NCBI GenBank assembly: GCA_951406725.2
Contig: OX597822.1
Location: 107,384,001-107,448,000, forward strand
Reading direction: 5' to 3'
Source of the DNA: Octopus vulgaris
Taxonomy: Eukaryota
DNA length: 64,000 nt
In this document: positions 7,608-61,431 of the stretch, piece after piece
Layout of the letters: each line of letters begins with the position of its first letter
Numbering within the stretch: position 1 is the first letter of the stretch
The notes under the pieces: model-generated
Database searches by the model: none
What the model was told of the DNA's origin: nothing
Seen by the model: only the letters and a program-made list of their open reading frames with translations
Position numbers and translations under genes: made by a program

Positions 7608-8619
<1,012 letters not shown>

Positions 8620-53980: not shown

Positions 53981-55688
53981 TATATAATTATATGTATGTA
54001 CGTATATATGTATATAGGTACTTTTGTATGTAGGTATAGTGCATGTATGTATATGTATATATTCATATATGAAAGTATCACTGTAAAGTGCGACAGCTAA
54101 CCTAAAATTAAGCTCAGTAGAAGTTTCCACAATCAACTCCAGTCAAGTAAGGCACGGGGTATCGACTTTGCTATATGTTAGAGTGCTGAATACGAACTAA
54201 ATAATAAAAATAATATGCAGAAAACAGGTATGGTATCTAATGTTTTATTGGACACACACGTGTATCAACAAATTTCCAAAATTATTACTTAATAGTTGTT
54301 GAAACATTATGCAATCATGTACAACACCTCATCAGTGTTCTCCTATAAAGCATTGAATATCGTACCTATTTTCTGCTTATTATTATTATTCCTCTCCCAA
54401 TCATTCTGTCTCTATCTATCTATCTATTTCCCTCCTCTCTTCTTCTCTCTTCCTACATACTCTCTCTCTCTCTACATATATACACACATATATACATATA
54501 CTTACACACACACTCACACACACACACACACACACACATGTTAGTACAATTAAAAAATTCCTGGAGTAGGAATTTAGTAAGCTTCAAGTATGTACACAAC
54601 TGTTATAGATTTCAAAATGTGGACAGCGTACGATAAAGAGTTCATTAGCCATTGTATGTTATACATTTCGTCCGATATAGAAATCAATAGAAGTATGGAT
54701 AAGCTGATCGTCACCAACCAACTCACGGTTTAGCAACTGTAATTGCTAAAGACGAGAATATAATTCCAAGGTAGTAAGAAATGAGAAAGGTAAATAAATA
54801 CTCTACATAATTCATAGCTAAAACAATGTTTGCTACATAACTTGTTACACACCTAAAACTTCGTTCATCTTCTGGTCCTATTACCTTGAATGTAATAAGA
54901 CCTTCACTGTCGCGTGGAGATGAGAAAATGCTTCATGAATAATAGCCACGGCACAAATCGTAATCTGAAAAACAAAAAAGAAGAAACATCAAAATCAAAT
55001 GACCAATGAAATTAATTGTTAGTATGTAAATCGTCCAAGAAAGGTAGGTTTTAAACATTATTTTTTTTTACTTTGCTGGATCACTATAGACATTCTATGT
55101 ATATATATATGTGTCCTCTACCGAAAAGGTAACCGCTTCCCACGCTTGCTGATCAATTGTTTTGTCTCATGTTGTCTCAAAGTCGTAAGACGCCCCCGTA
55201 TCATTCCTGTTTTTATTCGTTACTGTTTCCAATTTTATCTTCGTCTCTTGTTTTCCTATTCGTCTCGGTTGTCACATTATTTCCTTCTGCCAAGCAAATC
55301 TAATGCCCATAGCTTAGCTTTTGGATCTTTTCTTTTTGAAAGCCAGATTTTCCTAGTTAACTAAACAATTTGAAACTTCGTATACTGGTAGAATGTGTCA
55401 AAAGAAAACATAATTGTAAACCAAAATGAAAACGGAATTATAATTTCTAAGTTTAACGTTGTTTAATAATTCGAATTTTAACCAATGATATTCTTTCTTT
55501 CGGCCTCATATTATTTACTGCCTCTCAAAATATTGTTACTGTGACGTAAACAGCTATTTTGTGACGTAGCTAACGTAAACATGTAAATAGCTAACTAAAA
55601 TGTAAACATCTCCGCTTATCATAAACTTCGTGAATATATAAAATTTGTGTAGATCCTAAATAGCTACACACACATGTATACAAACATA

Positions 55689-55732
<44 letters not shown>

Positions 55733-55736
<4 letters not shown>

Positions 55737-56535
55737 CGTATTTTTGCCATTTCAATATGGCTAACCCCTAAGGGTGGATGCTACTGTAGTTTTTAGCCCC
55801 AGGAGGACACACTCCTCCAGCTGGCCATAGACACACTTTCTGCCTGTCAGTATAAAGGGAAGTATCCTTCCCGTCTTCAACTATGATACACACGGACTCG
55901 AGTTTCGATATACCACTCGTCATGTGACAATCATATATATATTTTCCAGCGTCCACTGTCGCTGATATTGAAAAAGTGAAATAAACAATGATAAATATCA
56001 AAGTGAGTTATATACAGAGCAGTAACACATCGTGACGTATTTTTGCCATTTCAATATGGCTAACCCCTAAGGGTGGATGCTACTGTAGTTTTTAGCCCCA
56101 GGAGGACACACTCCTCCAGCTGGCCATAGACACACTTTCTGTGTCCTGTCAGTATTTGCAAAGGGAAGTCATCCTTCCCGTCTTCAACTTATGATACACA
56201 CGGACTCGAGTTTCGAGGTATTGACCTCTCGTCAGCGTGTGACAATCATAGTTGTCGGCGAGAATTAGATTTCCTTCACAAATACTTATACTTTTTCCAG
56301 CGTCCACTGTCGCTGATATTGAAAAAGTGAAATCAAACAATGATAAATATCAAAGTGAGTTATATACAGTAGCAGTAACACATCGTGACGTATTTTTGCC
56401 ATTTCAATATGGCTAACCCCTAAGGGTGGATGCTACTGTAGTTTTTAGCCCCAGGAGGACACACTCCTCCAGCTGGCCATAGACACACTTTCTGTGTCCT
56501 GTCAGTATTTGCAAAGGGAAGTCATCCTTCCCGTC

Positions 56536-56539
<4 letters not shown>
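55733..56539 (-). mobile_element. Retrozyme-like tandem array (299-bp decayed unit, 353-bp unit, ~155-bp partial unit) in (TA)n
   Basis: Units start GTGACGTATTTT at 55733, 56032 and 56385. Each full unit has a hammerhead at the same offset. Confidence 0.8.
56197..56241 (-). ncRNA. Type I hammerhead ribozyme (perfect consensus)
   Basis: CACACG-CTGACGA-GAGGT CAAT ACCTC-GAAA-CTCGAG-TC-CGTGTG. GUC triplet; predicted cut between 56203 and 56202. Confidence 0.9.
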
Positions 56540-56574
<35 letters not shown>

Positions 56575-57845
56575 CTATACACACATATTCTAATGCATAT
56601 GCATATATGTGTATATATTTATAATGTGTGTGTATTATAGATGCATACATTATATATATATAAAAGATGTTTACATACAATATATATATGTTATATACAT
56701 CTACATGTATATATATGTATGAATATATAAGAACCACAGAATTTGAATCAAACTGTTTTGAACCATTCATACACACACACACACACCAACACTACCATCC
56801 ATGAGACATCCTAACATAATCAATGCTACTACTTCTACTATCATCATCATTATCATCATCATCCACTACCACCACCACCACCACCACCTCTACAAAAACA
56901 CCAACACTATAATTGCTGCCATCATACACATCCACTGTCACCACTACCACCACTGCCATGATAACCACATCTACCACAGCTGTTTGCTTACTGCTTACCC
57001 ACTCACAAAATAGCTATCTACGTCACATTAACACTATGCAGCTAATAAGTTCAAATGAAAACAGACAATATGATTGGCTAAGGATAGAATAAGTACTGGG
57101 CTTACAAAAAGAATAAGTCCCGGGGTCGAGTTGCTCGATTAAAGGCGATGCGGTCAAGAGTAACATTAAAGGTAAAATATGTTTTATATGACACATTAGG
57201 GTTAGGGTTAGTGTCCGAAGGTTGAAAGTGTTTAGTTACAAAAAATATATTTCTCGATCTGCCGTTGAAAGGGTAAAGATCCCTTATATTATTTATTTAA
57301 ACCCTTTACAAACTAGAAGGGTTATGGGTCAAGAGGAAAATACATCAATCAAATGTTGGGAAGACCATCGGTTGAATAAAACAACATTGTTCCTCAACAG
57401 AACAATAAGGCTCTATAGTTAGAATTTCTTGAATTTTTTGTTACCCTTATATTGATTGATTAATGAATTTTTGACTAATTCTGAAATTTGTATCAGCAGC
57501 TTATATTTGCTGCGGAGTAGATGGCGGGATTACGGTGAATTCGAAAATTTACGATATATAGACCCGAGGCTTAGATGGTGTAGCCTCGTGTATATATATC
57601 TGCCTCCTATTTTGGTGACTTTGCTGACGAGACAAGCCAAGCGTAAACGGATTTAATTTAATTTAATTAAATTTGATTGCGTGAAGATGTTGAAACCTTG
57701 CAGGGTACAAAGTTTGAAGGGGATAAATGTTTTTTATTTTCCTCTAGTTTCAGAATTACTATTTTTTGCGGTTTTGAGTTTTAGCTGCTCTTTTCAAGTG
57801 AGTCGAACGACCTTCTCAGGGTCATTCCTTAATATTTTGTTGAAA

Positions 57846-57925
<80 letters not shown>

Positions 57926-58325
57926 GTGTATGTATATACTTACATATATATGTATATACATATGCATATATGGGTTCAGGACGTCACAGAAGGTAAACAA
58001 CAGGAAATACGAAATACGAAAATATGGAATACGAACTTTTTTGCGAACAGCGAAAGAAACAATAGTATCGATAAAGCCCGATATTGCGTTTGACTCCTCT
58101 TGCTGATAACTGATGAAGAATTTGTGACCTTGTGTGTTTTCTGTTCGCCTGTGCATTTAGTATGTGTTCGTTTGTTTATTTACAAGACGTTTATTTTTAA
58201 TTATATATATATAGATATGTCATATTTTCCGTTTGTTGTCTTTTTATTTAATCCTGAAGATATTATTTATGTAACGCACGCACTCATTAATCTTTTACCT
58301 ATATATATATGTGTGTGCGTGTGTA

Positions 58326-58368
<43 letters not shown>

Positions 58369-58527
58369 TTCAAATTTACAGAAAACAAACGACGAAGACA
58401 GGTGAAAGAACAACAAGCAGAGTTTGAAGGTTTTTTAGTTATAGAAATCGACCCCAGGACTTACTCTTTGAAACCCTAGCACTTATTCTATCGGTTTCTT
58501 TTTCCAAAACGCTAAGCTACGGGGACG

Positions 58528-58607
<80 letters not shown>

Positions 58608-59077
58608 CGTAGGAGTGACTGTGTGACAAGAAGTTTGCTGCCTGGTCACTAGGTCAAATAGATTTGGACGATGGAAACTGAAAAAAGCCCGTCGTATATA
58701 CGTGTTTGTGGGCCGGAAGGGGCTAGCTTCGTGCTTGTCCCAGACAACCGCTTGTTGACTTCCTTTCCATCCCCGCAACTTAGAAGTTCGACGAAATTAA
58801 CCGATAGAATATGTCGAATGACTGAGACAAGTAAATGTTTTTTTTAGATATATCGTAGTAATATCTAATGTAGTTGTGGTTTACGACCAGTCTGGACGTT
58901 ACCATTGGTTTCACACTTTTTATACTCTTAGCAATATAGACGTCTCCCACGGCTAAGAACGTAAAAGGCGCGAAAGCAAAGGTGACTCCCTGACCGGCCA
59001 TACCAGCCACATAGTTTCGGGTTCATTCACACTGCGTGGCACCTTAGAACCTAGGGTTGGATTCAAAATTCTACCAG

Positions 59078-59121
59078 GACACCTGATGAAGGCTGGAGAG
59101 TAAATCAGCCGAAATTTTGTG
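59078..59121 (+). ncRNA. Minimal hammerhead motif (Penelope-like family, helix III decayed)
   Basis: CAC-CTGATGA-A-GGCTG GAGAGTAAAT CAGCC-GAAA-TTTT-GTG. Confidence 0.6.
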
Positions 59122-59714
59122 GTAGCAACAAACAAGATGAGGACAAATATCCGTCCAATGTAAAAAATGTAAATATTGTAGAGAATTCCTCATCTCTAAA
59201 ATATAGAACAATTTATGATTGTTTCAAAAATTCTATGTTGACTTAATCTTGCATCGTGTTTTTAAACGACTCCACAATTAATGATGTAGTCATATCCGTT
59301 GTACAGATACCCCGTTCATAGAAATGATCCCTCGCAACTCTCTACAAAAAATAATATGCTGAAGTGTTTGTCTATCGCTTAAATATAGGACATTAATCAA
59401 TGTTTATAGTGGACGGCACAGCGGTCACGTTTATAAACATGATTGAAGATAAGTCAAAATGAATTTGTAGAAATAATTGTAAACTATGAAACAAAAATAA
59501 TAACGCAAACTCCACTTTTCAGTGCTTATTACTTCTGTAACCCCTCAGAGGAAACATGACTCCTCCTTCACTCCTCTCCACCCTTCATTTATGGTTTGAG
59601 AATAATTCTATAATTGTTGTAAACTGGAATGGAACCTACTCTCTTTCTGCTCACATCCATTCACCATTTAATGCTACTTGCTTTGCATCTTTTAGAGAGA
59701 TAGATTAGATATAA

Positions 59715-60112
59715 CTAGCAGTATCGCCCGGCGTTGCTCGGATTTGTAAGGGAAATAACTATATAAGCATTTTTAGAGAGTTATAGCCAAAAAATAGCAA
59801 AAAAAAATGCATTAAAAATGGAAAAAAATGATGGTAAATTTTTTTAAATCGTTGACTCATCGTAGACATTTTTAGAGAGTTACTTCCCTTATATAATATC
59901 GAAAAAATGCATTAAAATGGAAAAAAATGATGGTAATTTTTTTTTTTTAATCGTAGACTCATCGTAGACGCGCGCTAATACTCAGAAGGGCTCCATATGA
60001 ATCACGACTATAAGATACCCGGTTTGGGTTAAACTGCACCGCAAAATGTGGGAGTAGTTACGAATCTAAATCGTAGGAGACAGACACACAACCTCTCTTT
60101 TATATATAAAGA
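59715..60112 (-). mobile_element. Non-autonomous Helitron
   Basis: 5' TC at 60112-60111; 3' hairpin plus CTAG at 59718-59715; A/T target site. Confidence 0.8.
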
Positions 60113-61431
60113 TAAACTCAAAGAGCAACTAGAAAGTGAAAGTAGTTTCTAACTTAGGATGTCTCATAGATAGTGGTGGCAATGGTGTTGGAGGTGGTAG
60201 ATGTGGTTATCATGGCAGTGGTGGTGTAGTGGTGACAGTGGATGTGTATGATGGCAGAAATTATAGTGTTGGTGTTTTTGTAGAGGTGGTGGTGGTGGTG
60301 GCGGCAGTGGATGATGATGATAATGATGATAGTAGTAGTAGCATTGATTATGTTAGGATGTCTCATGGATGGTAGAGTTGAAGACATTGCAGAGTGTAGT
60401 GGTGGTGAAATTGGTGATTTTGAATATGATACTGGTATTGATCTTGGGGTTGTGGTTGCAGAAGATGGTTGTGGTGGTGGCATTCGAGGTTGTAGTAATG
60501 GTTGTAGTGGTGGTTGTGAAGATGATTCTGATATTGATAGTCTTTGCATTGAGGTGGTGGCAGAGTCAGAGTAAATAATAAAGCCGAGTTAACACAAGAT
60601 TCTTAAATTTCGGAGATCATAAGATAGAGAGCAAGAAGTTAAAAGTTCCAATACTGGCCCAATACCTACACCCCAGATTCTTCAACTATTTTATAAGAAA
60701 GGGGTTAATGGCAGCATAGGGATTCAGCTTTAAAATAAATTGTATAACAAAAAATACATAAATAAATTACTGCTCCAACGATGTAATTTTAGTATGTGTG
60801 TATGTATGTATGTGTGTGTGTGTAAGCAATGCAAACAATGGAAAATAATTTAAACACTCATTTTCTGATGTCTAAGGATGGATATTTATGCGTATGAATC
60901 TTTTTATTTTTATTTTCTTTGAAATATAATTCTAGGGAACTGAAAAAGCTGTGTACGATGCCAATGAGCGGATGTTTACGTTACAAACGAATCTGTAGGT
61001 CTTTTTACGTTAACTACGTCACAAAATAGCTGTTTACGTCACAGTAACAATATTTTGAGAGGCAGTAAATAATATGAGGTCGAAAGAAAGAATATCATTG
61101 GTTAAAATTCGAATTATTAAACAACGTTAAACTTAGAAATTACAATTCCGTTTTCATTTTGGTTTACAATTATGTTTTCTTTTGACACATTCTACCAGTA
61201 TACGAAGTTTCAAATTGTTTAGTTAACTAAGAAAATCTGGCCTTCAAACTGAAAAGATCCTAGCTTTTCCTTGGGGCTGGCCTTTTCGGAGCAAATCTCA
61301 GAATTAAACAGCCGAAATTTGCCATGATGAATCGGTTTCTGACTGAAGAATGAAGGCTCTGAATTACTGTCCGTTTTTCCGTGTTTGTCAATTCGTGAAT
61401 TTCACGTTCTTCATATATAAGTTTTATTCTA

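What the first reader, a model, noticed from the sequence alone, without database searches (positions are those of the whole stretch)
55315..61268. Pack-type 5.9-kb TIR element carrying ribozymes and other cargo
Seen: near-identical ~255-bp TIRs, an exact 8-bp TSD, and flanks that rejoin as a relative of the 7715-8619 element. Inside are the retrozyme-like array, a second hammerhead (59078), a Helitron, very decayed SINE B pieces, a diverged TIR-like stretch (~57003-57080) and an inverted pair 56792-56977/60194-60374. No transposase is seen. Inference: the cargo looks older than the TIRs, suggesting capture and cut-and-paste movement of genomic DNA (Pack-MULE-like), possibly mobilising ribozyme elements.
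Basis: partly seen in the sequence, partly recalled or inferred. Interest (0 to 1): 0.7.

Follow-up and report, generated by a model that had tools for sequence, protein, structure and literature searches.

The report
Giant gene-less transposon hauling transposon debris
This 5.9-kb insert is a shrunken copy of a young family of gene-less jumping DNA whose other copies span 8 to 52 kb and carry the same load of old mobile-element scraps; its two intact ribozyme repeats sit in this copy alone, so they likely landed after it moved and are not what the family spreads.

Summary
TIRs (55323-55579/61004-61260, 250/257 identical), the 8-bp TSD and the split host repeat are real. The element belongs to a family of likely about a hundred copies: 20 others read end to end span 8.5-52 kb, 17 with exact 8- or 9-bp TSDs. 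Copies on different chromosomes share up to 18.6-21.6 kb of collinear interior at 1.5-2.5% divergence, so large units moved. Every Pfam hit in the shared load is a mobile-element domain (Helitron, mariner, LINE); no host gene and no own transposase. The Helitron, SINE scraps and the 59078 hammerhead are inherited family cargo, but that hammerhead is a decayed Penelope-type motif. The retrozyme array is absent at that site from 29 of 29 other left ends. A second retrozyme, not in the finding (57425-57844, hammerhead 57617-57714), sits exactly where this copy lost at least 3.6 kb. Two copies with TSDs begin with a complete 1.1-kb MITE, which points to birth by end bypass. Ends fit Merlin; no autonomous partner was found. 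Giant elements with fixed nested inserts are known from brown algae. The scan had not noted this family. Verdict: new variant of a known kind, not a ribozyme vehicle.

The parts
55315..55322 (.). Left target-site duplication TAGCTTTT
55323..55579 (+). Left TIR, starts GGATC; family has 1239 first-look candidates, top 40 at 98-100%
55323..57081 (+). Left arm: body of a ~1.1-kb MITE that also occurs alone with 8-bp TSDs; here split by the retrozyme array and cut inside its own right TIR
55733..56539 (-). Retrozyme 1 array (353-nt unit, 2.3 units) inserted in a (TA)n tract; private to this copy; 3' end matches the fixed end of free arrays
56197..56241 (-). Intact type I hammerhead of unit 2 (GUC site, palindromic loop 3); the only intact one in the array
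55733..56031 (-). Unit 1 with 54 nt deleted in many small gaps; hammerhead destroyed (real or assembly error not resolved)
56787..56977 (.). Core segment shared in inverted form with 60194-60380 (93%); present in family copies and in the short MITE
57003..57081 (-). Inner remnant of the MITE's own right TIR; its outer part and about 1.8 kb are deleted in this lineage but intact in C9:39.16 Mb
57083..57151 (+). SINE 3' piece, family cargo
57162..57283 (-). End of a sister GGATC-type MITE (83% to L226), family cargo
57425..57844 (+). Retrozyme 2 fragment (420 nt of a 482-nt unit, 98-99% to free arrays), private to this copy, replacing at least 3.6 kb of family interior
57617..57714 (+). Type I hammerhead with complete core, long stem II, GUA site after 57707; not in the finding
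57847..61260 (+). Right arm shared with other copies at 94-97% with gaps, 1-2% substitutions
59062..59211 (+). Old Penelope-type repeat piece with a decayed minimal hammerhead (59077-59123); TT where free copies have CG at 59115-59116; family cargo
59715..60112 (-). 398-bp non-autonomous Helitron, family cargo
61004..61260 (-). Right TIR
61261..61268 (.). Right target-site duplication TAGCTTTT
55156..55314 (+). Left half of the host repeat (relative of 7715-8619, Penelope-like by inference)
61269..61426 (+). Right half of the host repeat

Best explanation
The element is an internally deleted copy of a young, gene-less, TIR-bounded transposon family whose copies share up to about 18-21 kb of nested mobile-element debris, and it likely moved by cut-and-paste using a borrowed, probably Merlin-type transposase. 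Shown: TIRs, TSDs, unrelated flanks, shared collinear cargo on many chromosomes, and no own transposase in the copies read. Inferred history: (1) a 1.1-kb MITE likely bypassed its own right end and paired its left TIR with a related inverted end 15-20 kb away, taking the repeat-rich DNA between; (2) a ~2-kb deletion removed the inner TIR in the main lineage, which would force full-length moves; (3) further elements (for example a Helitron with Pif1 remnants) landed in copies that kept moving; (4) this copy inserted into an old Penelope-like repeat; (5) two retrozymes then likely inserted at its (TA)n tracts, the second with loss of most of the interior.
For: 20 other copies read at both ends: 8.5-52 kb, 15 with exact 8-bp and 2 with 9-bp TSDs, 3 imperfect or none. 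0 of 435 pairs among 30 left flanks share junction sequence. Collinear shared interior 18.6 kb at 1.5% (C27 vs C8), 21.6 kb at 2.5% (C8 vs C30, of which 4 kb is a Tx1-type LINE), 16.4 kb (C8 vs C26). Interior probe 59250-59700: 118 candidates, top 40 at 98-100%. Near-identical high-depth contigs bridge the cargo junctions in 4 of 4 public runs under 4 organism labels; depth is about 40 times that of unique flank contigs in X1 and X4 (the tool warns this is no copy number). 8 of 59 ORFs in shared blocks hit Pfam, all mobile-element domains. C9:39.16 and C26:38.39 Mb start with the complete short MITE and end in the family right end with 8-bp TSDs; 5 short copies have their own TSD, 4 exact. Tree of 15 copies: a 98% branch splits the 8 Helitron-bearing copies plus this one from 5 Helitron-free copies and one copy deleted there. 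Retrozyme 1 is absent at its site in 29 of 29 other left ends; no other scored hit joins the left arm to retrozyme 2; both end at their family's fixed 3' end against (TA)n.
Against: No autonomous partner: no Merlin, MULE or hAT ORF was found between two GGATC-type TIRs, so superfamily and enzyme are inferred from the ends. No stand-alone form and no inner end of the right arm was found (best profile hit E 0.2), so the two-element origin is shown for the left side only. The short MITE could instead derive from the long element through the internal TIR. For 8 further copies the other end was not found within the 20-33 kb read. Searches score only the best 40 hits, so a diverged donor locus or a sister copy with the retrozymes could be hidden. 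Most nodes inside the Helitron clade have 22-60% support. No true empty allele at this locus was seen.
Confidence: 0.8

Rival explanations
1. True Pack-type capture: a MITE copied stretches of ordinary genomic DNA by gap filling or template switching, then transposed (Pack-MULE/FoSTeST route).
For: Segments 57284-57422, 57980-58290 and 59211-59714 matched no non-family locus among those held, and 59250-59700 has only about as many candidates as the family has copies (118), as captured low-copy DNA would. Multicopy with distinct TSDs.
Against: No host-gene domain among 10 window ORFs or 59 ORFs of shared blocks. No donor locus seen. The load is 16-21 kb against a median of 224 bp for animal Pack-TIRs (PMC8277862, passages). 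A complete inner MITE end in two copies fits bypass better.
Confidence: 0.15
2. The long element is the ancestor, an old autonomous transposon that lost its gene and filled with insertions; the 1.1-kb MITE arose from it by using an internal TIR.
For: Left and right arms share an inverted 190-bp core, as long imperfect TIRs would. Short MITEs differ by only a few percent from the long left arm. Nested insertion into moving copies is shown.
Against: No remnant of an own transposase in 16 full copies with a Merlin profile (best domain E 0.021, in a non-core insert). It needs a pre-existing internal TIR in the correct orientation, which a neighbouring MITE explains directly.
Confidence: 0.25
3. 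The family is a vehicle that spreads active ribozyme elements.
For: One hammerhead-derived motif (59077-59123) is in nearly all right arms read. One other copy holds an older retrozyme-like array (L040).
Against: The shared motif has TT where free copies have the palindromic CG, a mismatch in stem I and a UUU site; one copy breaks CUGAUGA at each of two positions and five copies lack stem II. Free copies outnumber it by orders of depth. The intact hammerheads are private inserts, and each insert has only one intact motif.
Confidence: 0.04
4. Two independent solo TIR repeats happen to flank unrelated DNA, or the copies are segmental duplications.
For: GGATC-type MITE ends are very abundant in this genome.
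Against: Exact TSD, split host repeat, 17 of 20 other pairs with their own TSD, unrelated flanks, shared collinear interiors.
Confidence: 0.01

Closest known systems
Giant KDZ, EnSpm and Sola-1 transposons of Ectocarpus (PMC12477816, passages read)
   Same: More than 10 kb and up to about 30 kb; nested insertions of unrelated TEs fixed among copies, taken as proof of continued transposition; some families wholly non-autonomous.
   Different: This family is in an animal, has GG ends with 8-9-bp TSDs, shows no accessory gene in the ORFs scanned, and begins with a complete MITE.
Merlin superfamily, non-autonomous members (definition in PMC8101967, passages read)
   Same: 5'-GG ends, TIR length within 24-462 bp, 8- or 9-bp TSD; Merlin transposases are abundant in this genome (150 scored matches).
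   Different: No DDE_Tnp_IS1595 gene inside and no coding partner with these TIRs found; size far above the 1.5-kb Merlin elements with TSDs seen.
Multicopy Pack-TIRs of animals and Pack-MULEs (PMC8277862 and PMC6431247, passages read)
   Same: TIR ends move non-transposase DNA to many sites with distinct TSDs.
   Different: Load is 16-21 kb rather than about 0.2-2 kb, is TE debris rather than gene fragments, and has no identified parent.
Composite or macro-transposons from paired elements (Ac/Ds pairs, PMC3429523 search listing only; bacterial composite Tn and Drosophila FB-flanked TE recalled)
   Same: Outer ends of two related elements carry the DNA between; a complete element at one end.
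   Different: Here the composite amplified to many copies and lost its inner end; the right-hand partner is not shown as a free element.
Animal non-LTR retrozymes and PLE minimal hammerheads (PMC7229834 passages; 10.64898/2026.07.22.740005 part 1 of 5; PMC4209133 passages)
   Same: Tandem 353- and 482-nt units with type I hammerheads; the 59078 motif has the extra base after A9 typical of PLE minimal hammerheads.
   Different: Each insert here holds only one intact hammerhead, below the two-unit rule for an active retrozyme in the 2026 preprint; the 482-nt unit is above the ~300-bp monomer size quoted in PMC7229834.

Membership tests
Merlin (non-autonomous) | TIR starts 5'-GG, 24-462 bp | tested here: met
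   GGATC..., 257 bp
Merlin (non-autonomous) | 8- or 9-bp TSD | tested here: met
   this copy 8 bp; 15 x 8 bp and 2 x 9 bp of 20 other long copies
Merlin (non-autonomous) | TIRs shared with a DDE_Tnp_IS1595-coding element | tested here: inconclusive
   TIR-clan hits within 1.5 kb of 4 of 30 and 5 of 30 Merlin loci (7 distinct), 0 of 30 MULE, 0 of 30 hAT, 1 of 38 control loci, but mostly facing away and never bracketing an ORF
MULE / hAT | TIRs shared with a MULE or hAT transposase locus | tested here: inconclusive
   0 of 30 loci each (of 66 and 150 matches), only 1.5 kb flanks; the one hAT delimited starts CAGGGG
Pack-TIR / Pack-MULE | Non-autonomous, TIR pair with TSD, multicopy | tested here: met
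Pack-TIR / Pack-MULE | Interior holds a host gene fragment | tested here: not met
   0 of 10 window ORFs above Pfam cut-off; 8 of 59 shared-block ORFs of one 35-kb copy hit Pfam, all TE domains; short or non-coding exons not excluded
Pack-TIR / Pack-MULE | Parental non-TIR locus of the captured DNA | tested here: inconclusive
   none among top 40 of 118 candidates or among loci held; the tool lists only the best 40
Composite (end-bypass) transposon | Complete element at the left end that also moves alone | tested here: met
   C9:39.16 and C26:38.39 Mb; short copies L012, L017, L019, L021 with exact TSD
Composite (end-bypass) transposon | Complete element at the right end that also moves alone | tested here: not met
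   20 of 20 right-end loci continue into cargo; no significant inner end
Non-LTR retrozyme (55733-56539, 57425-57844) | Tandem short units with type I hammerhead, dispersed in the genome | tested here: met
   353- and 482-nt units in free tandem arrays; 2273 and 1431 candidates
Non-LTR retrozyme (55733-56539, 57425-57844) | Two consecutive intact hammerheads (active copy) | tested here: not met
   one intact motif in each insert
Non-LTR retrozyme (55733-56539, 57425-57844) | Self-cleavage and circular RNA | not testable with these tools
   needs bench assay or raw RNA reads
PLE minimal hammerhead (59077-59123) | Palindromic positions 15.2-16.2 for dimer folding | tested here: not met
   TT here; G at 59116 in about 77-89% of laid depth in 4 runs

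The most novel reading that the evidence does not exclude
A 1.1-kb animal MITE turned into a gene-less giant by bypassing its own end, then lost that inner end, which locked in a load of 18 kb or more. The family now acts as a ferry that copies other transposons, including a LINE with an unbroken 1,132-aa ORF, to new chromosomes, and retrozyme insertions can collapse such copies by deleting more than 10 kb. It would be a Merlin-type element over ten times the size of the coding Merlin elements delimited in this genome.
Probability: 0.35. Interest if true: 0.58.

Novelty: new variant of a known kind. Interest (0 to 1): 0.42.

Why it matters
A review states that natural cut-and-paste efficiency falls above about 6 kb of cargo (PMC6431247, passage), yet this animal family amplified units of at least 16-18 kb within what is roughly the last 1-2 million years (terminal branches 0.4-1.2%, scaled with JC 0.09 = 25 My from PMC13282606; rough). 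It gives a dated series, MITE to composite to inner-end loss to nested growth to collapse, in one genome. It also warns that many 'independent' Helitron, LINE, SINE and hammerhead copies in repeat counts can be passengers of one carrier. It does not show a new route for ribozyme spread.

Tried and rejected
Rfam at gathering thresholds: 0 hits in the window. Autonomous partner: PF12762, a Merlin protein query, PF10551 and PF05699 searches with 30 loci each, plus 28 wider stretches; no ORF bracketed by GGATC-type TIRs. L161 (79% TIR next to a broken Merlin ORF) proved to be a sister MITE cut at its right end. A likeness of one window ORF to a Merlin motif gave no tblastn or profile support. My interim idea that 57162-57283 is the left arm's own TIR was dropped: it matches a sister family, and the true inner TIR is deleted. 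Empty allele: one X6 contig runs from 55322 into right-flank sequence with 2 differences in 30 nt, probably a paralogue of the multi-copy host repeat, so it is not counted as an allele. No RNA holder listed. Laying contigs to find a donor locus for 58610-59760 showed only the amplified form. Unconstrained folds of the three hammerheads gave modest z-scores (-2.0 to -2.5) and were not used as evidence. Literature: 8 searches listed no description of this family; of PMC13282606 I read part 1 of 3, and its repeat library and supplements, which may hold it as an unclassified TIR, were not read.
Full report
Observation. The window lies at G000:C9:107.38-107.45 Mb in a 2.8-Gb genome; the repeats look like those of an octopus (SINE types recalled; other notes of the scan say the same). 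The TIRs at 55323-55579 and 61004-61260 are 250/257 identical, start GGATC and are flanked by the exact 8-mer TAGCTTTT. The flanks align in register to the 7715-8619 repeat, overlapping by the TSD, and beat 100 shuffles each; two free copies of that host repeat run through the site. The listed interior parts are all there. No transposase is encoded.

The family. The left TIR has 1239 first-look candidates, the best 40 at 98-100%. Of 29 other left ends read, 21 share 55323-57422 with the window, and 8 carry a full diverged right TIR about 1.1 kb in. Five of those 8 are short MITEs with their own TSD (4 exact, 1 with 7 of 8); three have no TSD there and continue. Reading further gave 20 other long copies with both ends: 8.5, 8.6, 10.5, 11.8, 12.9, 13.2, 14.5, 14.8, 14.9, 15.1, 18.1, 19.1, 19.5, 19.7, 21.8, 22.7, about 29.9, 35.6, 39.1 and 52.2 kb; 15 have exact 8-bp TSDs, 2 have 9-bp TSDs, 3 are imperfect or lack one. 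For 8 more the other end was not within the 20-33 kb read; one left end (L014) was not followed. None of 435 pairs of left flanks shares junction sequence, so these are not segmental duplications. An interior probe has 118 candidates, the best 40 at 98-100%, and the same cargo junctions appear at high depth in 4 of 4 public runs under four organism labels.

What moved. Among 16 full copies compared, collinear shared sequence reaches 18.6 kb at 1.5% substitutions (C27 vs C8), 16.4 kb (C8 vs C26) and 21.6 kb (C8 vs C30; 4 kb of it is a Tx1-type LINE that might be a repeated site-specific insertion). Of 59 ORFs in shared blocks of the C30 copy, 8 hit Pfam: Pif1 (Helitron), mariner and DDE pieces, an HTH piece, LINE reverse transcriptases, and one unbroken 1,132-aa endonuclease-RT ORF. 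A tree of 15 copies on 3.6 kb of the arms (C8_94.4 left out, it lacks the right arm) has a 98% branch with 8 Helitron-Pif1-bearing copies and the window on one side, and 5 copies without it plus C26_3.65 (deleted there) on the other. So at least one passenger entered a copy that went on transposing. Other nodes in that clade are weak (22-60%, one pair 99%).

This copy. It shares 4.5-4.8 kb with 13 of 15 copies at 1.2-2.6%. Two stretches are private. The array 55733-56539 sits in a (TA)n tract that lacks it in 29 of 29 other left ends; its unit is 99% identical to free tandem arrays, and none of 24 free-array loci read carries the TIR. Only unit 2 has an intact hammerhead; unit 1 has lost 54 nt in small gaps. 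The stretch 57425-57844 is 420 nt of a second, unrelated 482-nt retrozyme unit, 98-99% to free arrays, with a full type I core. It joins family position 57422 to the (TA)n at 57847. The matching interval is 3.8 kb in the smallest copy and 10-48 kb in five clade mates. Both inserts end at their family's fixed 3' end against (TA)n. I infer Penelope-driven insertion after this copy landed, the second with deletion of the target; a deletion patched later at the same point cannot be excluded.

The 59078 hammerhead is family cargo: 98-99% identical in most right arms, but 10-16% from free copies. It has TT where free copies have the palindromic CG that PMC4209133 (passages) lists as conserved, a stem I mismatch and a UUU site; five copies have lost stem II. 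It is likely dead.

Origin. Copies at C9:39.16 Mb (19.5 kb) and C26:38.39 Mb (14.9 kb), both with 8-bp TSDs, begin with the complete short MITE and end in the family right end; in C9 about 1.8 kb follow before the sequence of 57083-57422 resumes. The main lineage, with the window, has deleted that stretch and the outer part of the inner TIR. The arms also share an inverted 190-bp core. The simplest reading is end bypass between two related MITE ends, then loss of the inner end (about 0.6 likely). Against it, no free form or inner end of the right arm was found, and the MITE could be the derivative.

Superfamily. GG ends, 257-bp TIRs and 8-9-bp TSDs meet the Merlin description (PMC8101967, passages). 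Merlin transposases are plentiful, and TIR-clan sequence lies near 7 distinct Merlin loci against 0 of 30 MULE, 0 of 30 hAT and 1 of 38 control loci, but mostly facing away, and it never brackets an ORF. Membership stays likely, not shown.

Comparison and novelty. Giant elements with fixed nested inserts that keep moving are described in Ectocarpus (PMC12477816, passages); multicopy Pack-TIRs are described in animals but with small loads (PMC8277862, passages); retrozymes are known (PMC7229834 passages; 10.64898/2026.07.22.740005 part 1 of 5). Eight literature searches listed no account of this family, and scan look-ups by TIR sequence and by place returned nothing; supplements of PMC13282606 were not read and may list it. 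What is new is the combination: an animal, gene-less, likely Merlin-type, MITE-born carrier of 16-21 kb with its intermediate stages still in the genome. The ribozyme angle is ordinary. Interest 0.42.

Noticed in passing
window 55733-56031: First retrozyme unit differs from the second almost only by deletions (54 nt in about 12 gaps, 1 mismatch), clustered in hairpin stems; may be reverse-transcriptase skipping or long-read error.
   Followed up: partly
L270:4404-7799 (G000:C30:13.36 Mb): Unbroken 1,132-aa endonuclease-RT-zinc-finger ORF of a Tx1/L1-type LINE inside a family copy, shared collinearly with the C8:37.5 Mb copy; carried or reinserted is open.
   Followed up: partly
L092-L130: Free arrays of both retrozyme families often have an inverted partial copy and end at a fixed base against (TA)n, as other notes of the scan report.
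   Followed up: partly
L197-L221, L226, window 57162-57283: The GGATC-type TIR clan has several abundant ~1.1-kb sister MITE families with 8-bp TSDs; the sister end inside this element has TTAGGG repeats in place of part of the TIR.
   Followed up: partly
L010, L016, L022 just beyond the inner TIR: A decayed TTAGGG-like run follows the intact inner TIR in the three long copies that keep it.
   Followed up: no
L042/L088 (G000:C8:94.43-94.45 Mb): An 18.1-kb copy with 8-bp TSD has lost the whole right arm except the TIR, and is inserted in a SINE identical over 50 nt to the piece at 57085-57134.
   Followed up: no
L006, L009, L018 (TA)n tracts of the left arm: Other private inserts sit in the same (TA)n tracts, so these tracts look like landing spots.
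   Followed up: no
G000 hAT hits: Many same-scoring hAT copies with open frames of 720 and 632 aa; one delimited with CAGGGG ends and an 8-bp TSD (L314): likely recently active families.
   Followed up: partly
L162, L165, L166 (G000:C19:44.41-44.49 Mb): Tandem serpin-like genes (named from recall of the sequence type), each next to the same MITE end and Merlin fragment: a local gene-cluster duplication.
   Followed up: no
window 7715-8619: Relative of the host repeat with direct terminal repeats and a hammerhead-like motif on the minus strand; Penelope-like by inference.
   Followed up: partly
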